The notes below the pieces were generated by a model. That model saw nothing but the letters and a program-made list of their open reading frames with translations, searched no databases and was not told the origin of the DNA. The position numbers and the translations under genes are program-made. Positions 127-7,103 of a stretch of 10,524 nt of DNA are shown piece by piece (positions within the stretch are counted from its first letter, which is position 1; each line of letters opens with the position of its first letter). Source of the stretch: a virus. The stretch lies in UHGV virus genome UHGV-0053376; one strand, 5' to 3'.

Positions 127-333
127 CTTCATTTTCACTTTTTTAAATCCAACGACAGACGGCTGGCATTTAAGTATTGTGAAATATTATCAAATGTAAT
201 CATCATTGATTTACAAAAGATACATTTTGCCCCGAAAGGATTCATGTCAGAAACATCAAAAGATGATGTTCTATACTGGGAACCATGACAACACGGGCAT
301 CTAAAGTGAATATGGTTTGTAATATTGTCTACC

Positions 334-546
334 TCAAAGCGCCACTACATGAACAGCGGCAGGACCTTTAGGTCCGTTCTCAATACCAAATTCAACTTCC
401 TGATTCTCAGTTAATGTTTTGAAATCGTTGCTCTGAATTGCTGAGAAATGGACAAACACATCTTTGCTGCCATCTTTCGGCGTGATGAAACCAAAACCTT
501 TTTCAGGGTTAAACCATTTCACTAAACCAGTCATTTTGTTAGACAT
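334..546 (-). CDS. cspI: Cold-shock protein, CspA family (CspI-like), 70 aa
   Basis: Translation [38 protein letters not shown]... carries the RNP1 motif KGFGFI and RNP2 motif VFVHF of cold-shock domains. ATG at 546 with AAGG about 9 nt upstream. Sequence matches my recollection of E. coli CspI, and position next to Rz matches the Qin prophage layout. Confidence 0.85.
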
Positions 547-760
547 AATTATTACCTTTTGAAGAAATTAGCCCTTGGGCAGAATGGTCCGAAAAAAATA
601 TCAGAGAGAAAAACCAACAAGGAAATCTCAAGAGGTACAAATAATAAAATTATAACAATGACTGCTTCAGATAAATTTGTAACAAACCAGAACACCATTA
701 ACGCATGATTAACCACCCATAGCAAGGATTACTTTTGTAAAGAAAAACACAGCAATGAAA
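547..760 (-). promoter_or_regulatory. AT-rich leader and promoter region of the csp gene (long 5' UTR expected for CspA-family genes)
   Basis: About 360 bp of AT-rich non-coding sequence lies upstream of the csp start. CspA-family genes typically have leaders of roughly 150 nt. No promoter hexamers could be placed confidently. Confidence 0.25.
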
Positions 761-907: not shown

Positions 908-1935
<1,028 letters not shown>

Positions 1936-2046
1936 GGATATTTATCAGGATTTATCGGTTCCGAATCCCTGGATATGTTAAGCCTTCACCCCGCCAGTGG
2001 TGGGCACTGGCCAGGGTATGTCAATCTGATAAACACAGAGGTGACT

Positions 2047-2307
2047 ATGGATTATCCAAATCTACCAAAACAAACTTTTGCTGATTTAATCGCACTCAGG
2101 CAAGCAGTCGTAGCTCTAATCAACGTGTTGCCGGATGAGGAAAAGGAATTAGTTAAAGCAATTCTTAACAGAACTGCCGCCGATTTTTCATCATTCCCAC
2201 TGACAGATGACCTTGCGGACCTTCCTGAATTAATTGCAGCGTCCGCCATTAAGCTTACTGAAGAGATTTACTCTCCTCAAAAGCCTTCACAAAATTCCTG
2301 CGAGTAA
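2047..2307 (+). CDS. Hypothetical small acidic protein (86 aa), convergent with and overlapping the 3' end of the 169-aa gene
   Basis: ATG at 2047 is preceded by a strong SD (GAGGTG, about 6 nt spacing). Product MDYPNLPKQTFADLIALRQAVVALINVLPDEEKELVKAIL... looks helical and protein-like. It is the only plus-strand ORF with a good RBS in the window. Its last 53 nt overlap the convergent 2255..2764 gene, so reality is uncertain. Confidence 0.35.
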   Translation: MDYPNLPKQTFADLIALRQAVVALINVLPDEEKELVKAILNRTAADFSSFPLTDDLADLPELIAASAIKLTEEIYSPQKPSQNSCE

Positions 2308-2764
2308 CTTCAATGCAATAATCGTAAAACGCCGCGAACTGCTCATCGCGGCGTTTTTTTGCATCTTCAGAAGGCATCAGCGTCGACAGTTTTTTATTCA
2401 GTTCAACGACGCAATTCTCCAGTTTTTCAATGCGTGATTCGATATCATCTTTTTCTGACAGTATCGTGTTATATGCATTGTTAATTTGTATGGTATACCG
2501 ATCTTCGGAACAAAGGCACTTTTCCTGTGACTGTTCATCCCCTTCACATAACCCGGCAGCAATATCCATGAAAAACTGCTTCGCCTTCTTTTTCGCCTCA
2601 GCTTCGTAAAACTCCAGCGGGGCACCTTCAACACGATCAAGATCAATCACCACATTTGGCAACAACAGTGACGTATACCCACCCGTTTCCAGCGCTACAG
2701 TAACAGTAATCTTATCCGGGTAATTATTTATCCCTTTAACAACCAGTTCGTATTGTTTATTCAT
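2255..2764 (-). CDS. Hypothetical protein (169 aa) inserted between holin and endolysin; possibly analogous to the ydfR-type gene at the same position in Qin
   Basis: ATG at 2764 is 3 nt after the holin stop, with GGGGAGAG upstream, so it is translationally coupled to the holin. No transmembrane segment; C-terminal half predicted coiled coil (IESRIEKLENCVVELNKKLSTL). GC content is visibly lower than the flanking lysis genes. I recognise no family. Confidence 0.7.
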   Translation of the reverse strand: MNKQYELVVKGINNYPDKITVTVALETGGYTSLLLPNVVIDLDRVEGAPLEFYEAEAKKKAKQFFMDIAAGLCEGDEQSQEKCLCSEDRYTIQINNAYNTILSEKDDIESRIEKLENCVVELNKKLSTLMPSEDAKKRRDEQFAAFYDYCIEVTRRNFVKAFEESKSLQ

Positions 2765-2767
2765 CGT

Positions 2768-2983
2768 CTACTCTCCCCGCGCCGCCTTACGCCGGTCTTC
2801 TTTAATTTTGAAATACAGGTTCGTCAGGTACGTCAGCAGACCAAACAGCAGACTCCCCAGCACGCCTATTGCCGCCCACTGAGACGGGGAAACCCTGTCC
2901 AGCAACTGCAGGAACCAGTAGCCCGTTCCCACCGCTGACGTGGTGTATGACACACCTGTTGTGATTTTTTCCATCTGGTACAT
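2768..2983 (-). CDS. Pinholin (class II holin, phage 21 S21 family), 71 aa, with dual-start motif
   Basis: Translation [71 protein letters not shown] closely resembles S21 pinholin as I recall it. Two in-frame ATGs (codons 1 and 4) fit the antiholin/holin dual-start arrangement. SD GGGAGA upstream. Pairs functionally with the SAR endolysin. Confidence 0.85.
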
Positions 2984-3707: not shown

Positions 3708-5696
3708 TTATGATGATGCCCGGCTTTCGTTAACTTTGACTGTGACCGTATCAAGCAGTACAGGATACGTCGCTTTTGCCCCCGTGATATCTGTCAGCGT
3801 CAGCGTATCTGCTGTAAAGCCATCATTTGTCCACATCACAAGGTCAAACGCCGTCTGCTCTGTACCATCAATCACCGGAACGACTCTTTCGCTGTTATTT
3901 CCCGCAAAGCGGAAAACAACTGTATGCCAGTTATGGTCAAATGCCCCAAATGTGCCCAGTTGCGCATTCGACTCCCCCTTGTGGTACATCAGATTCAGAT
4001 TTGATGCATCCGTCTGAAGGAAGAATGATGCCAGCATACTGTTTGCTGCCGCGCCTGACGCCCACTGCGACACCGGCCAGTAGAGACCAAAGACAAACTG
4101 TCCGTTCACCAGTTCGCTTCCATCCGGAATTTTGAACCGTACGGCAATTTCACCCCCCTTGCTGAGAAGATTTTTTGCCTCCTCCACCGCAACAGTACGG
4201 AACATCTTCCAGGAGGTCAGTTTACCCGGCTGTTTTTCCAGTCGCAGCGCCTTCCTGCCACTGTCATCCGTCACAGTGCCTTTACCACCGGACGCATTCC
4301 ACTGCTGCTCTGTCCATACACCATTTCCACTGTTCGCATCATATTCAGCCACCGTCCTGGTACTGCTCACGGCCTCATCATGACCAGTACCAGCAACACC
4401 GCCATCCTGCGGTTTCTCAACACCCGGTACCCCCGGACTGACATCATCACCGGGAGTTGTACCACCCGACTGCGGTGCGCTCTGCCCGGTAAGGAACGAT
4501 AATGTCCGCCCGGCGTACTGCAAAATGGCACCTGCCAGGCGGTCTGAAACAATGCCTCTTCGCGCCCAGGAGCTGAAGTGCGTTTTACGATCGGCTGACG
4601 TCCAGTTACTGGCAGTGCGTGACGCAGCGCCATAGTATCCCGCCGGGATAATGTCCGGATCTTCTGACGGCTCGTTTGTCGGCACATTCACACCATGCTC
4701 ATCCGTCATCAACGGCACAAAGTGAATATTCTGCGCCGCCTTGCCTTTATAGCCTCCGTAAACCGCCTCATACTGCACTGCATACTTCGCCTTCCAGTCG
4801 TACGTGGTGTCACCGCAAATCCACGGGACGCCGGACGTTGTCCCGCCAATACACTGGTCTGCAATATCTGCCAGGTCTGCACGGTATTTATTTACCATGG
4901 CAAGAAAAAGTGCATTGTGCTCTGCATGTCTCCCCGAACTGACATCTTTTTCCCCCTGCATCCAGATCACCGACAACAGCACGTTTTTCGGATTTTTCTT
5001 CAGGGCTGCACGCGTTCTGCTGACCAGGTCACGATACAACGGTTTATCCACCCCCCACAGGGAAGAGCCCGCTGTCGCACCCGACGCCTCATTAAACGCG
5101 CCCTCTGCTCCCGCAGTAAATCCCGAATCGCCACGTCCACACGGGACAAGAAGGATCCCCGCACGGGCAGGCATAAACGGCAGCAGTTTTTTGGCCACAT
5201 GCAGGGCATGCCCCACACAGCCATACTGCCCTTTATTGAGGTCTGCTTTCGGGTGATTCAGATTACTCACGTCCTGCACATCATGCAGACAATGGTCTGC
5301 AGGAATAATGTCGTTATATGCACAGGCCGCACCGCCCGGTGTCACCGTGCTGCGACGCGCCAGTTGCTTAATACGCGGGTCAGGACGATCATACGTATCC
5401 GGCAGCGGCAGCCCCTCGCCAAAAGACATCGAGTTGGACTGCCCGGCCAGCGCAATGACAAAGTAATATTCCGGTTCGCTGGTGGTGCTGATAACAGCGC
5501 CACCATCACCCGACGGTTGCACCACCACCGGTGTGGTGACATCACCTTCCGCCGCAATGGCCTGCATCAGGGTATAGGGCGTGATGGCCACCGGACTGCC
5601 AAATGGCTGCCCCCCCTCCTTCAGTTTTTGAGTCAGTCGCTCCGCAAGGTCTGACGGCGACGCCGCCCTGACCACATCGTAGTGTTTAAATGTCAT
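3708..5696 (-). CDS. nanS-p: Prophage sialate O-acetylesterase, NanS-p-like (SGNH/SASA-family esterase with C-terminal lectin-like domain), 662 aa
   Basis: Contains the GQSN(S)M catalytic-serine block (VIALAGQSNSMSFGEG) typical of sialate O-acetylesterase SGNH hydrolases. Strong SD GGGAGGA 5 nt upstream of the ATG at 5696. Position immediately upstream of the lysis cassette mirrors the large esterase ORF found downstream of stx in Stx prophages. Symbol is given on family and context grounds, not sequence identity. Confidence 0.75.
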   Translation of the reverse strand: MTFKHYDVVRAASPSDLAERLTQKLKEGGQPFGSPVAITPYTLMQAIAAEGDVTTPVVVQPSGDGGAVISTTSEPEYYFVIALAGQSNSMSFGEGLPLPDTYDRPDPRIKQLARRSTVTPGGAACAYNDIIPADHCLHDVQDVSNLNHPKADLNKGQYGCVGHALHVAKKLLPFMPARAGILLVPCGRGDSGFTAGAEGAFNEASGATAGSSLWGVDKPLYRDLVSRTRAALKKNPKNVLLSVIWMQGEKDVSSGRHAEHNALFLAMVNKYRADLADIADQCIGGTTSGVPWICGDTTYDWKAKYAVQYEAVYGGYKGKAAQNIHFVPLMTDEHGVNVPTNEPSEDPDIIPAGYYGAASRTASNWTSADRKTHFSSWARRGIVSDRLAGAILQYAGRTLSFLTGQSAPQSGGTTPGDDVSPGVPGVEKPQDGGVAGTGHDEAVSSTRTVAEYDANSGNGVWTEQQWNASGGKGTVTDDSGRKALRLEKQPGKLTSWKMFRTVAVEEAKNLLSKGGEIAVRFKIPDGSELVNGQFVFGLYWPVSQWASGAAANSMLASFFLQTDASNLNLMYHKGESNAQLGTFGAFDHNWHTVVFRFAGNNSERVVPVIDGTEQTAFDLVMWTNDGFTADTLTLTDITGAKATYPVLLDTVTVKVNESRASS

Positions 5697-5918: not shown

Positions 5919-5949
5919 GTCCATAAGAAAGCCCCTCCGGAGAGGGGCT
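5919..5949 (-). terminator. Minus-strand intrinsic terminator, back-to-back with the plus-strand one
   Basis: Stem gcccctc 5931-5937 / gaggggc 5942-5948 with tetraloop cgga. On the minus strand it is followed by UUUCUUAUGGAC (complement of 5919-5930). Confidence 0.45.
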
Positions 5950-6209
5950 GGAGAGTGGCGCTATGTGCCATTGCATGGTGCCGGGTGCCTCCCGGTGAGT
6001 TCAGCCCGGTGACACTAAACCCGCATATTCTCGCTTACGATCATCAAAGAGATCATACCGTTCACCAGTCGCCCCTCCGCACAGGGGGATTCACCATGCG
6101 AAATTTTTTTAACAAATGCTCAGCCTGACAGGCAACTGTCAACTTACTGAATTGTGAGGAATTTAACACTTCACAGCACAATATCTTTCCAGCGCCCCAA
6201 AATCATCAG

Positions 6210-6236
6210 GACAGGAGAAAATCTTCTCCCCCTGTC
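6210..6236 (-). terminator. Hairpin overlapping the lipoprotein stop codon (possible weak terminator)
   Basis: ggagaa 6214-6219 / ttctcc 6224-6229 inner stem, plus outer gaca / tgtc pairing. On the minus strand it is followed by CUGAUGAUUUUGGGG, a moderately U-rich tract. Confidence 0.3.
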
Positions 6237-6663
6237 AGAGTTTAAAATCCAGCACGCCATTTCTAAATGCTTTATATACTCCTGAAGACGGTGGTGATGG
6301 TATATCAGCATTCTTTACTGCATTCATCGCTTCACGACATAAATCGGGATCACCGCTTTCTCTTTTAACCTGTAGCAGAAGACCATTCGGGGCCATATAC
6401 ATTCTCAGTGAACACTCTTTTCCTGAATACTTACTCGCATCCTTTAACTGTTCTTCTATGGCTTTCCTGACCTGAATGGCATACTGCCTGATTTCTTCAC
6501 TGGCATCAGGGGTACGTTCCGATGAGCTCAAATTTTGCGACTTTATTAATTTATCTGAGTGATACAGAGAAGCATCATAATTATTTGTCGATACATCTTT
6601 TGTGCAGCCAGTTGTCAGACTGGCTAATATCAAAACAAGAACTGGTACAGCACGGCAATACAT
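6235..6663 (-). CDS. Outer-membrane lipoprotein with a TolA C-terminal (domain III)-like domain, 142 aa
   Basis: Signal peptide MYCRAVPVLVLILASLTTG-C with lipobox-like TTGC and Thr at +2. C-terminal 85 aa (IRQYAIQVRKAIEEQLKDASKYSGKECSLRMYMAPNGLLLQVKRESGDPDLCREAMNAVKNADIPSPPSSGVYKAFRNGVLDFKL) aligns with E. coli TolA domain III as I recall it (…YAGQIKSAIESKFYDASSYAGKTCTLRIKLAPDGMLLDIKPEGGDPALCQAALAAAKLAKIPKPPSQAVYEVFKNAPLDFKP), including both Cys. Good SD (GGAGATGG) and low GC relative to flanks. Confidence 0.8.
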   Translation of the reverse strand: MYCRAVPVLVLILASLTTGCTKDVSTNNYDASLYHSDKLIKSQNLSSSERTPDASEEIRQYAIQVRKAIEEQLKDASKYSGKECSLRMYMAPNGLLLQVKRESGDPDLCREAMNAVKNADIPSPPSSGVYKAFRNGVLDFKL

Positions 6664-6941: not shown

Positions 6942-7018
6942 TGGACCGCCATCGAGGACTCGAACCCCGCGCAGCCAGCTTCGAAGGCTGGCGCTCTATC
7001 CCGATGAGCTAATGGCGG
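6942..7018 (-). tRNA. tRNA-Arg, anticodon UCG (would read CGA/CGG)
   Basis: Reverse complement folds as a cloverleaf: acceptor CCGCCAT / ATGGCGG, D-stem GCTC / GAGC with G18-G19 and A20, anticodon stem CCAGC / GCTGG with loop CTTCGAA (U33, anticodon UCG, A37), T-stem CGGGG / CCTCG with T-loop TTCGAGT, 3' CCA encoded. Begins with an unusual C1-G72 pair. Confidence 0.8.
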
Positions 7019-7027
7019 TATGTGATA

Positions 7028-7103
7028 TGGTGGCCCTTGCTGGATTTGAACCAGCGACCTGGCGATTATGAGTCGCTCGCTCTCACCACTGAGCTAAAGG
7101 GCC
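7028..7103 (-). tRNA. ileZ: tRNA-Ile2-like, anticodon CAU (lysidine type), ileZ-like
   Basis: Reverse complement GGCCCTTTAGCTCAGTGGTGAGAGCGAGCGACTCATAATCGCCAGGTCGCTGGTTCAAATCCAGCAAGGGCCACCA is 76 nt with CCA encoded and anticodon loop CUCAUAA. It is nearly identical to E. coli ileX as I recall it. Position between the Q-side genes and the cargo slot matches phage tRNA genes in Stx-like prophages. Confidence 0.85.

What the first reader, a model, noticed from the sequence alone, without database searches (positions are those of the whole stretch)
1936..2767. Cargo inserted between pinholin and SAR endolysin: a holin-coupled 169-aa protein plus a convergent overlapping 86-aa ORF
In phage 21-type lysis cassettes S and R are adjacent. 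Here about 830 bp sit between them. The 169-aa gene starts 3 nt after the holin stop with a good SD, so it is co-translated with the holin at lysis time; it has no transmembrane segment and a coiled-coil C-terminus. Converging on it from the other side is an 86-aa plus-strand ORF with the strongest SD in the region, overlapping by 53 nt. The endolysin is left with no recognizable SD. Low GC suggests horizontal acquisition. This could be a lysis-timing regulator, an abortive-infection or anti-defence cargo, or an antisense-regulated pair.
Basis: partly seen in the sequence, partly recalled or inferred. Interest (0 to 1): 0.6.

Follow-up and report, generated by a model that had tools for sequence, protein, structure and literature searches.

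The report
YdfR-family late gene with convergent partner
The DNA between the holin and endolysin genes of this E. coli prophage holds a long form of the common but uncharacterised YdfR (DUF1327) late protein and a small real gene on the opposite strand; the two form a conserved pair also found elsewhere in related prophages, but what they do is unknown.

Summary
832 bp (1936-2767) separate an S21-type pinholin from a SAR endolysin and hold a 169-aa minus-strand ORF (2255-2764) and a convergent 86-aa plus-strand ORF (2047-2307) overlapping it by 53 nt. The "foreign cargo" reading is only partly right.

- **169-aa protein:** a YdfR/DUF1327 family member (Pfam E 2e-34). Its N-domain DNA occurs in 58% of complete E. 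coli genomes, always in this slot.
- **86-aa ORF:** a real gene (PHROG 2572) with homologs at 41-53% identity, between-group dN/dS of 0.22-0.28 and a strong SD.

New here: in every context found, the 86-aa gene ("B") converges on and overlaps by 53-59 nt a late-strand ORF ending in the same ~60-aa helical module ("A"). A is fused to DUF1327 here and is a stand-alone 73-aa gene after Rz in Salmonella prophages. A hairpin inside A's coding sequence sits where B's terminator should be. The short ydfR genes of K-12 Qin and Stx phages look like deletion derivatives that lost A and B.

Function is unknown: no defence, toxin-antitoxin or structural match. The only experimental lead is the reported binding of K-12 YdfR to RNase E. 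Moderate interest.

The parts
2768..2983 (-). S21-type class II holin (pinholin), 71 aa, with Met1 and Met4 as a possible dual start
   Evidence: Pfam PF04971 E 7e-33 and PHROG holin families. The sequence begins MYQMEK.
2255..2764 (-). 169-aa long-form YdfR-family protein: DUF1327 N-domain, disordered linker and helical A-module
   Evidence: Pfam DUF1327 over residues 1-80, E 2e-34. PHROG 2091 full length, E 1e-84. 265 homologs, all in Enterobacteriaceae and all carrying PF07041, with lengths from 92 to 296 aa. AF2 model has mean pLDDT 63.
2525..2764 (-). DUF1327 N-terminal domain (residues 1-80), predicted beta-beta-beta-alpha
   Evidence: strands 5-14, 18-27, 38-43; helix 50-73; pLDDT 63-89. 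It is homologous to residues 1-72 of K-12 YdfR, the part reported to bind the RNase E catalytic domain (PMC13232886).
2255..2467 (-). A-module: residues ~100-169, two long helices ending ...KKRRDEQFAAFYDYCIEVTRRNFVKAFEESKSLQ (stop codon included)
   Evidence: It hits PHROGs 36381 and 15975 on its own. It is homologous to stand-alone 73-aa proteins (BLASTP E 3e-5, 31% identity over 62 aa; alignment). Helices at 108-129 and 133-168.
2047..2307 (+). Gene B: 86-aa acidic (pI 4.3) predicted three-helix protein, PHROG 2572, convergent with the 169-aa gene
   Evidence: PHROG 2572 full length, E 4e-50. Annotated as WP_001625288.1 in RefSeq. Homologs at 41-53% identity keep the ORF and the SD. dN/dS is 0.40 within E. 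coli (p 0.014) and 0.22-0.28 between groups. AF2 predicts helices 8-27, 30-48 and 56-74.
2255..2307 (.). 53-nt 3'-3' overlap of the two coding sequences
   Evidence: 53 nt in all but one of the E. coli-group loci in which both genes could be read. It is 59 nt in the other groups.
2038..2044 (+). Shine-Dalgarno sequence GAGGTGA of gene B
   Evidence: The other groups have TAAGGA at the same position.
2326..2360 (+). Hairpin (12-bp stem, 8-nt loop) followed by a U-run: predicted intrinsic terminator of gene B, embedded in codons KKRRDEQFAAFY of the 169-aa gene. A weaker terminator-like hairpin forms on the late strand.
   Evidence: RNA fold -24.2 kcal/mol, z -2.5 on the + strand and z -3.3 on the - strand. 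Present in all three groups, with 86.9% of cells paired and 2 compensatory pairs, which is weak (40 of 500 shuffles reach it). The simple scanner missed it.
1938..1956 (+). 19-nt block ATATTTATCAGGATTTATC upstream of gene B, identical (position 13 aside) in all eight sequences compared, one of which (WGPS2) lacks gene B
   Evidence: Alignment. Unique in the window. It is kept in Salmonella-type loci that have no R gene next to it, and it is incomplete upstream of R in the B-less 296-aa context.
1951..1979 (+). Candidate weak sigma-70 promoter of gene B: TTTATC, 17 nt, TATGTT (inferred only)
   Evidence: Hexamers and spacing are conserved (TATTGT in the Salmonella group) while the spacer diverges. 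It is below the threshold of the consensus scan. Not tested.
2004..2518 (.). 515-bp block (A-module plus gene B) that is absent from the short 114-aa ydfR locus of Stx phage WGPS2
   Evidence: Pairwise BLASTN breakpoints.
2012..2314 (.). 303-bp gene-B cassette, replaced by an unrelated 777-bp segment in Stx1a phage Stx1_14040
   Evidence: The replacement carries another plus-strand ORF.
1402..1935 (-). SAR-type endolysin R, 177 aa, with no SD-like leader
   Evidence: Pfam PF00959 E 1e-23 and PHROG endolysin. N-terminal hydrophobic segment (KD19 maximum 1.78). Leader sequence.

Best explanation
**What it is (shown).** The interval is the full-length form of the ydfR locus of Qin/Stx-type lambdoid lysis cassettes, not a one-off insertion. 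It contains two genes.

1. A late-strand gene translated just after the pinholin. Its product is a cytoplasmic fusion of a DUF1327 domain, a disordered linker and a ~65-aa two-helix "A-module".
2. Gene B, a convergent gene with its own SD, encoding a small acidic three-helix protein.

B's last 17 codons overlap A's last 17 codons. A hairpin plus U-run inside A's coding sequence sits 19 nt after B's stop.

A-module plus B is a conserved two-gene unit. It also occurs as a stand-alone 73-aa gene with a 93-aa gene after Rz in Salmonella-type prophages. It is fused to a K-12-type DUF1327 domain in another E. coli lineage, and to an unrelated N-terminus in a third context.

**How it arose (inferred).** The short ydfR genes of K-12 Qin (103 aa) and of Stx phages (114 aa) arose by deletions that removed A and B.

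**How it most likely works (inferred, low confidence).**
- The 169-aa protein is made late from the Q-dependent transcript, together with S and R. It is an accessory factor rather than part of the lysis machinery.
- By homology with K-12 YdfR, its N-domain would bind the catalytic half of RNase E and/or RNA. The A-module would act as an oligomerisation or partner-binding coiled coil.
- B is transcribed on its own like a moron (as lambda bor is), from a weak promoter in the conserved block at 1938-1979, and terminates at the embedded hairpin. It would therefore be expressed when late transcription is off, and silenced by convergent late transcription.
- B was never found without A, whereas A occurs without B. 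So B's protein and/or its ~370-nt antisense transcript most likely acts on A or on the A-R segment of the late mRNA.
For: **Family membership and abundance**
- DUF1327 E 2e-34 and PHROG 2091 E 1e-84.
- N-domain DNA in 3158 of 5426 E. coli genomes.
- essQ-ydfR-rrrQ in K-12, and YdfR-family genes between S and R in Stx phages.

**Functional phages.** The same two genes occur at 99.9% identity in plaque-forming phages PhiR12_1/2/5.

**B is a real gene**
- It falls in PHROG 2572.
- Of 84 loci, 73 have the intact 86-codon ORF, and length variants differ by in-frame indels.
- dN/dS is 0.40 in frame only (p 0.014) and 0.22-0.28 between groups.
- Homologs at 41-53% identity keep the ORF and the SD.

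**The pair is conserved**
- B always lies 105-114 nt (mostly 111-113) from R and overlaps a long YdfR by 53 nt.
- Stand-alone 73-aa A with 93-aa B follows Rz or precedes Nu1/DUF1441 terminase genes.
- Fusions of 243 aa and 144 aa also occur.
- A-module homology: E 3e-5 and the alignment.
- A occurs without B in the 296-aa form.

**Hairpin:**

**Conserved upstream block:**

**Deletion origin of the short forms.** K-12 positions 1-332 and 333-410 match L098 positions 101-432 and 1206-1283. WGPS2 flanks a 486-bp gap in 2H10.

**RNase E lead.** K-12 YdfR residues 1-72 bind the RNase E N-terminal half in two-hybrid and pull-down assays, and RNA co-purifies (PMC13232886).
Against: **Function is untested**
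- Neither protein has a Pfam, NCBIfam or PADLOC match beyond DUF1327.
- Foldseek against the PDB gives nothing with E below 0.1.
- Both AF2 models are of modest confidence (pLDDT 63 and 66).

**The RNase E lead is indirect**
- It comes from a diverged allele. The table does not list K-12 YdfR by name; its entries range from 47% to 99% identity.
- YdfR overexpression barely changed the transcriptome.

**Expression of B is not shown**
- No consensus promoter was found for B. The proposed one scores 3/6 plus 4/6.
- The U-tract after the hairpin is strong only in the E. coli group.
- Covariation in the hairpin is weak (40 of 500 shuffles). The hairpin could partly reflect the conserved KRRDE..AA peptide.
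- Within groups dN/dS is 0.5-0.95. In addition, 7 of 84 loci have ATG changed to ACG and 4 have lost the stop, so constraint on B is not strong.

**Other limits**
- The 19-nt block also precedes R in B-less WGPS2-type loci, so it may serve R rather than B.
- Deletion versus insertion is a parsimony argument.
Confidence: 0.6

Rival explanations
1. One reading: recently acquired foreign cargo (abortive-infection, anti-defence or toxin-antitoxin genes) inserted into a phage-21-type S-R junction.
For: - S and R are adjacent in DLP12.
- GC dips to 0.42.
- The gene-B cassette (2012-2314) is replaced by an unrelated 777-bp segment in Stx1_14040, so the slot does exchange content.
- B is small and acidic (pI 4.3), as many anti-defence proteins are.
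- dN/dS is relaxed within groups.
Against: - The 169-aa protein belongs to the resident YdfR family, found in 58% of E. coli genomes.
- There are no significant PADLOC hits; the best is E 0.003 at 14.9 bits.
- The short forms look like deletions rather than empty sites.
- The arrangement is old enough to have diverged to 41-53% protein identity while keeping its geometry.
- A occurs without B, which argues against a classical toxin/antitoxin dependence.
Confidence: 0.15
2. Lysis-timing regulator: the 169-aa protein and/or B modulate pinholin triggering or SAR-endolysin release, in the manner of an antiholin or a T4 RIII-type factor.
For: - The pair lies inside the lysis cassette, with a 3-nt gap to the holin stop.
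- Helix 1 of B is borderline hydrophobic (KD19 1.64, against 1.70 for the holin).
- According to PMC13232886, an earlier screen linked ydfR to envelope integrity.
Against: - The A/B pair is also found after Rz in cassettes with Phage_holin_8 and holin_3_7 plus a GH19 endolysin, next to terminase genes, and after TerB-like/DUF3927 genes. It is therefore not tied to the pinholin/SAR system.
- DLP12, and by established knowledge phage 21, have S next to R with no ydfR.
- A has no membrane segment.
- Helix 1 of B carries conserved Asp, Arg and Gln residues.
Confidence: 0.15
3. The plus-strand ORF is not a gene. The region is an untranslated spacer or leader of the late mRNA, or an antisense RNA locus, and the open frame is incidental.
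For: - dN/dS is near neutral in some close comparisons (window vs 2H10: 8 nonsynonymous and 3 synonymous changes; 0.8-0.95 within the Salmonella-type group).
- The start codon is lost in 7 of 84 loci and the stop codon in 4.
- No consensus promoter was found.
- Phage 2H10 and PhiR63_1 records do not annotate it.
Against: - The frame stays open, with an SD at the right distance, in lineages only 41-53% identical at protein level and with saturated synonymous sites (pS about 0.6, dN/dS 0.22-0.28).
- Indels are in frame.
- Only this frame and its third-position-sharing antisense frame show a synonymous excess, and the antisense frame has a stop.
- A predicted terminator follows the stop.
Confidence: 0.07

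Closest known systems
YdfR of the E. coli K-12 Qin cryptic prophage (P76160; Pfam DUF1327 / PF07041)
   Same: The N-terminal ~80 residues are homologous (Pfam E 2e-34). The position is the same: directly after an S21-type holin and before an R21-type lysozyme. The function is equally uncharacterised; ydfR is still in the y-ome list (PMC11551758).
   Different: K-12 YdfR is 103 aa and lacks the A-module, and its locus lacks gene B. Its stop overlaps the rrrQ start only because a 773-bp deletion joined codon ~99 to the last 10 nt of the R leader. RNase E and RNA binding were shown only for the K-12 protein (PMC13232886).
Morons of lambdoid phages, e.g. lambda bor / DLP12 borD (opposite-strand gene at the end of the lysis cassette)
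   Same: Gene B is a small gene on the strand opposite to late transcription, inside the lysis region. It has its own SD, a predicted terminator and lower GC, and it is absent from some related phages.
   Different: - B is not a lipoprotein and has no signal peptide.
- Its 3' end overlaps a late gene, and its terminator lies inside that gene's coding sequence.
- It travels with a specific partner module rather than alone.
- No promoter has been demonstrated.
PHROG families 2091/1085/406/2735/34145 (YdfR-like) and 2572 (gene B)
   Same: Both proteins are full-length members (E 1e-84 and 4e-50). The same annotated pair is present in GenBank phage PhiR12_1.
   Different: The PHROGs carry no function and no statement about the pairing. 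The "DUF1823 containing protein" label in PhiR12_1 rests on a non-significant match (E 0.023, below the Pfam threshold).
Convergent-transcription / 3'-overlapping antisense gene pairs (excludon-type arrangements; lambda oop-cII)
   Same: Two convergent transcription units whose 3' ends are complementary, with a bidirectional hairpin between them.
   Different: No transcript data exist here. Any regulatory effect is inferred. This comparison is recalled from general knowledge and was not tested.

Membership tests
YdfR / DUF1327 (PF07041) | Sequence match to the Pfam model above the gathering score | tested here: met
   118 bits against a cut-off of 25, residues 1-80. All 120 listed homologs carry PF07041.
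YdfR / DUF1327 (PF07041) | Location between an S21-type holin and an R21-type lysozyme in lambdoid prophages | tested here: met
   Window, K-12 Qin, Stx phages and L100.
YdfR / DUF1327 (PF07041) | Binding of the N-domain to the RNase E catalytic half, and co-purifying RNA (reported for K-12 YdfR only) | not testable with these tools
   PMC13232886. Foldseek shows only a non-significant dsRBD-like resemblance (E 0.44).
Moron (independently transcribed accessory gene in a phage operon) | Lies between genes that are adjacent in related phages | tested here: met
   ydfR and R are adjacent or nearly so in K-12, WGPS2 and the 296-aa form. Cassette boundaries are 2012-2314.
Moron (independently transcribed accessory gene in a phage operon) | Own terminator | tested here: met
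   A 12-bp hairpin plus U7 lies 19 nt after the stop, at -24.2 kcal/mol. This is a prediction only. The U-tract is weaker in the other groups.
Moron (independently transcribed accessory gene in a phage operon) | Own promoter | tested here: inconclusive
   No consensus hit upstream of gene B. TTTATC-17-TATGTT is conserved in position but weak.
Moron (independently transcribed accessory gene in a phage operon) | Expression from the repressed prophage | not testable with these tools
   No transcript data are available.
Phage-21-type pinholin / SAR-endolysin lysis cassette | Class II S21 holin, lysozyme with an N-terminal weakly hydrophobic signal-anchor-release segment, and Rz with embedded Rz1 | tested here: met
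   PF04971, PF00959 and DUF2514/Rz-like spanin. The R N-terminus has KD19 of 1.78. An Rz1-like ORF at 958-1230 lies inside Rz at 908-1405. SAR behaviour itself is not testable.
Known anti-phage defence or toxin-antitoxin systems | Match to a PADLOC, Pfam or NCBIfam model of a defence, toxin or antitoxin protein | tested here: not met
   Best PADLOC hit E 0.003 at 14.9 bits for A, none for B. No NCBIfam or Pfam hit.
DUF1823 (label given to gene B in GenBank PV340549) | Pfam match above the gathering score | tested here: not met
   15.3 bits against a cut-off of 25, E 0.023, covering 30 residues only.

The most novel reading that the evidence does not exclude
The A-module and gene B form a previously unrecognised, mobile, convergently overlapping two-gene switch in lambdoid late operons. 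B would be made in the lysogen from its own promoter. Its protein, or its antisense RNA ending at the hairpin embedded in A, would hold in check the late protein A or the A-R part of the late transcript. Q-driven late transcription would then silence B by collision and release A. A in turn would redirect RNase E or RNA metabolism at the end of infection. That would give the orphan YdfR family a function and add a new kind of lysogeny/lysis checkpoint.
Probability: 0.12. Interest if true: 0.65.

Novelty: new variant of a known kind. Interest (0 to 1): 0.4.

Why it matters
YdfR/DUF1327 genes sit in the lysis cassettes of most E. coli strains, including Shiga-toxin phages, often in several copies per genome, yet they have no known function. 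This analysis shows three things:

- The textbook K-12 ydfR is probably a truncated remnant.
- The complete locus is a modular fusion plus a conserved opposite-strand partner gene.
- That partner pair moves between different positions in late operons.

This gives concrete constructs to test: full-length A, the A-module alone, B, and hairpin mutants, all in the plaque-forming phage PhiR12_1. It also links them to the one biochemical lead available, RNase E binding. If nothing comes of it, these remain ordinary accessory phage genes.

Tried and rejected
- **Defence, TA and named-family searches.** PADLOC, NCBIfam and Pfam gave nothing beyond DUF1327 for A, B, the 73-aa A, or the 233-aa ORF of Stx1_14040.
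- **Structure.** The AF2 models are only moderately confident (pLDDT 63 and 66). Foldseek against the PDB gave no hit with E below 0.1. The dsRBD-like partial match (E 0.44) is not usable.
- **Rfam.** No family between 1800 and 2900, even at E of 1 or less.
- **Promoter scan.** No consensus sigma-70 site upstream of B. The only hit lies inside B.
- **Terminator scan.** It missed the 2326-2360 hairpin because it extends the stem into the U-run. I folded the hairpin directly instead.
- **Hairpin covariation.** Two compensatory pairs, but 40 of 500 shuffles reach that number, so this is not significant.
- **Spurious hits.** Matches of B to 975-aa and 1305-aa proteins (P0141, P0142) are repeated TPR-like helices in CHAT-domain-type proteins. 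I rejected them as spurious.
- **Genome-contig scan with the B profile.** It returned only one E. coli locus.
- **tblastn of Salmonella B against phage genomes.** Only the E. coli phages were found.
- **The 233-aa plus-strand ORF in Stx1 phages.** Only 8 near-identical copies exist, so coding could not be assessed.
- **Literature.** One paper mentions DUF1327 and none describes the pair. The search for PhiR12 found nothing relevant.
Full report
**Context.** The window is the late region of a lambdoid prophage, read on the minus strand. In order it carries:

- a Q antiterminator (8777-9598)
- a DNA methylase
- tRNA-Met and tRNA-Arg
- a TolA_C-like lipoprotein gene
- the sRNA STnc100
- a NanS-type SASA esterase (3708-5696)
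- DUF1378 and DUF826 genes
- the S21 pinholin (2768-2983)
- the interval in question
- the SAR endolysin (1402-1935)
- Rz/Rz1 (908-1405 and 958-1230)
- a cold-shock gene with its cspA-type leader

The layout is that of Qin and of Stx-converting phages.

**Observation.**
- 832 bp separate the holin stop from the endolysin start.
- A 169-aa ORF (2255-2764, minus) begins 3 nt after the holin stop codon, behind a GGAG.
- An 86-aa ORF (2047-2307, plus) sits behind GAGGTGA and overlaps the 169-aa ORF by 53 nt.
- The endolysin has no SD-like leader.
- GC falls to about 0.42.
- S and R are adjacent in the phage-21-type cassette of DLP12.

The same two genes occur at 99.9% identity in the isolated phages PhiR12_1, _2 and _5. 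The arrangement is therefore compatible with a working lysis cassette.

**The 169-aa protein.** The whole protein matches PHROG 2091 (E 1e-84). A search returned 265 homologs. The 120 listed all carry PF07041, and all that are named come from Escherichia, Shigella or Salmonella. Their lengths run from 92 to 296 aa.

DNA of the N-domain is found in 3158 of 5426 complete E. coli genomes, with up to 8 copies per genome. YdfR-family genes occupy the S-R slot in K-12 Qin and in Stx phages. So this protein is the usual resident of the slot, not exotic cargo.

The family alignment shows a mosaic. It has a conserved N-domain, alternative linkers, a helical segment (SEKDDIESRIEKLE...), optional inserts, and a nearly invariant tail (KKRRDEQFAAFYDYCIEVTRRNFVKxFEExKSLQ). 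The AF2 model (pLDDT 63) gives three strands plus a helix for residues 5-73, a disordered stretch at 73-106, and helices at 108-129 and 133-168. It has no significant PDB neighbour and no membrane segment.

**The 86-aa ORF is a gene.** Several lines of evidence agree.
- It is a full-length member of PHROG 2572 (E 4e-50) and is annotated in RefSeq.
- At least 80% of 1936-2330 is present in 294 of 5426 E. coli genomes.
- Among 84 loci there are 14 nucleotide alleles. 73 loci have the intact 86-codon ORF, 7 have ATG changed to ACG, and 4 have lost the stop.
- Length variants differ by in-frame indels.
- In the part not shared with the other gene, dN/dS is 0.40 (12 synonymous against 15 nonsynonymous changes, p 0.014). 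The other frames give 1-2, apart from the antisense frame that shares third codon positions, and that frame contains a stop.

The decisive evidence came from an exhaustive HMMER search and a profile search. These found relatives at 41-53% identity (P0139, P0140, P0144-P0147). They keep the open frame and a TAAGGA SD. Between groups dN/dS is 0.22-0.28 with pS of about 0.6. Within groups it is 0.5-0.95. The protein is acidic (pI 4.3) and is predicted to form three helices with a disordered tail. It has no structural or family match. The "DUF1823" label in GenBank rests on a sub-threshold hit.

**The pair is a conserved unit.** I call the 86-aa gene B. In every locus that could be read, B converges on a late-strand ORF and overlaps its 3' end.
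- In the E. coli group the partner is a long YdfR of 169, 171, 176, 183 or 211 aa. The overlap is 53 nt in all but one locus, and R lies 105-114 nt (mostly 111-113) away.
- In Salmonella-type lambdoid prophages and some metagenomic contigs the partner is a stand-alone 73-aa gene. It lies right after Rz, or upstream of DUF1441 or Nu1 terminase genes, and overlaps B by 59 nt. Those cassettes have different holins and a GH19 endolysin.
- In another lineage the partner is a 243-aa protein with a K-12-type DUF1327 domain. In one contig it is a 144-aa protein downstream of TerB-like and DUF3927 genes.

The last ~60 residues of all these partners are homologous to residues 108-169 of the window protein (BLASTP E 3e-5; alignment). 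I call this part the A-module.

A occurs without B: the 296-aa YdfR form keeps the module, followed by a further domain, and has only 36 nt before R. B was not seen without A.

**Embedded hairpin and upstream block.** Nineteen nt after B's stop lies a hairpin with a 12-bp stem and an 8-nt loop, followed by a U-run (2326-2360; -24.2 kcal/mol, z -2.5). It is also stable on the late strand (z -3.3), where the 3' U-tract is poorer. It lies inside codons KKRRDEQFAAFY of the 169-aa gene. A hairpin is present at the equivalent place in all three groups. Two pairs change on both sides, but this is not statistically convincing (40 of 500 shuffles). The U-tract is strong only in the E. coli group.

Upstream of B, the 19-nt block ATATTTATCAGGNTTTATC is identical in all eight sequences compared, including the B-less WGPS2 locus, while neighbouring sequence diverges. 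This includes Salmonella-type loci where no R gene follows. TTTATC, 17 nt and TATGTT/TATTGT fit a weak promoter at a conserved spacing. That reading is an inference. The consensus scan found no promoter, and the block also precedes R in B-less WGPS2-type loci.

**Module boundaries and direction of change.** Against WGPS2 (114-aa YdfR), window positions 2004-2518 replace 84 nt. Against Stx1_14040, window positions 2012-2314 (B plus 35 nt) are replaced by 777 unrelated nt that carry another plus-strand ORF. The hairpin is shared in both comparisons.

K-12 Qin aligns with the 243-aa locus on both sides of a clean 773-bp gap. The gap joins ydfR codon ~99 to the last 10 nt of the R leader, which creates the K-12 "KYL-stop/ATGA" junction. 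WGPS2 likewise aligns with phage 2H10 around a 486-bp gap. Each short form matches its own long-form lineage, the breakpoints differ, and K-12 lacks most of the invariant leader. Two independent deletions are therefore more parsimonious than two insertions.

**Mechanism.** The following are shown:
- the architecture of the locus
- family membership of both proteins
- that B is protein-coding
- conservation of the convergent pair and of the hairpin

The following are inferred:
- The 169-aa protein is made late with S and R, given its position, its SD and its place in the Q-dependent operon.
- It acts in the cytoplasm as an accessory factor.
- The one experimental lead is that K-12 YdfR residues 1-72 bind the catalytic half of RNase E in two-hybrid and pull-down assays and co-purify RNA. 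Overexpression, however, changed the transcriptome little (PMC13232886).
- B is probably an independently transcribed, moron-like gene, expressed when late transcription is silent and terminated at the embedded hairpin.
- Its strict association with A suggests that its protein or its antisense RNA acts on A, or on the A-R segment of the late mRNA.

I put about 0.8 on the structural and evolutionary account and about 0.25 on the functional account.

**Rivals.**
- Foreign defence, anti-defence or TA cargo: no model matches, and the locus is common and old. The slot does exchange cassettes, though, and B is small and acidic (about 0.15).
- Lysis-timing factor: the position fits, but the pair also occurs with unrelated lysis systems and outside them (about 0.15).
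- B is not a gene: contradicted by the distant homologs (about 0.07).

**Comparison with what is known, and novelty.** The 169-aa protein is a member of the YdfR/DUF1327 family. Gene B resembles lambdoid morons such as bor in organisation, but its own promoter and its expression in lysogens are untested. Both proteins are already catalogued as hypothetical. I found no description in the papers searched of:
- the A/B pairing
- the modular fusion
- the embedded hairpin
- the deletion origin of K-12 ydfR

I rate this a new variant of a known kind and of moderate interest.

Noticed in passing
L002:4055-4366 (K-12 MG1655 ydfR) compared with L098: The K-12 ydfR gene (103 aa) and its ATGA overlap with rrrQ appear to result from a 773-bp deletion. 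The deletion removed the C-terminal two thirds of a 243-aa long form, together with the convergent gene B and most of the R leader.
   Followed up: yes
L005:2062-2763 (+), Stx1a phage Stx1_14040: A different plus-strand ORF of 233 aa (GTG start) fills the same slot between the R leader and the hairpin. It overlaps about 250 nt of the annotated 263-aa YdfR-family gene, so one of the two readings is probably spurious. It has no Pfam, PHROG, PADLOC or NCBIfam hit, and only 8 near-identical copies exist in phage genomes.
   Followed up: partly
window 1938-1956: The 19-nt block ATATTTATCAGGATTTATC contains TTTATC twice, 10 nt apart. It is identical in the three diverged gene-B groups and in WGPS2, and it is kept in Salmonella-type loci with no R gene beside it. 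It could be a promoter/UP element for gene B, a leader element for R, or a protein-binding site. This is unresolved.
   Followed up: partly
window 1989-2020: A stem-loop (CCAGTG-GTGGG-CACTGG, inside CACCCCGCC...GGCCAGGG) lies at the module boundary, in the putative 5' UTR of gene B and the late A-R spacer. Its sequence differs between groups.
   Followed up: no
L001:6719-6964 (E. coli EC2, NZ_CP058571): PGAP annotates the DUF1327 gene at this locus as a pseudogene ("missing C-terminus") and covers only about 82 codons. The same gene is annotated intact (510 nt) in phage PhiR12_1, and the window ORF is intact. The PGAP call therefore probably reflects a model that covers only the N-domain, or the overlap with gene B. 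I did not check whether the ORF in EC2 itself is intact.
   Followed up: partly
window 5919-6128 (-): Full-length match to the Rfam sRNA STnc100 (177.7 bits, E 3e-41), between the TolA_C-like gene and the NanS-type esterase.
   Followed up: no
window 6235-6663 (-): A 142-aa protein with a lipoprotein-like N-terminus (…LTTGC) and a TolA C-terminal domain (E 6e-23), sitting where stx genes lie in Stx phages. It is a possible moron or superinfection-exclusion candidate.
   Followed up: no
window 6942-7103 (-): Two phage-borne tRNA genes, tRNA-Arg (anticodon TCG) and tRNA-Met (CAT), downstream of the Q-side methylase, as in Stx phages.
   Followed up: no
window 307-691 (-): A cold-shock protein gene (334-546) with a full cspA-type thermoregulator leader (Rfam RF01766, 114 bits) lies directly after Rz, as cspI does in Qin.
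   Followed up: no
window 2974-2983 (-): The holin begins MYQMEK, with Met1 and Met4. This is the dual-start arrangement expected for the S21 antiholin/holin pair. That interpretation comes from general knowledge and was not tested.
   Followed up: no
PMC3141248: An in-vitro run-off transcription array lists the CFT073 probe set c1434 ("ydfR") as preferentially transcribed by sigma-S RNA polymerase (ratio 3.45). The strand and the promoter are not given, so any link to transcription in this locus is unknown.
   Followed up: no
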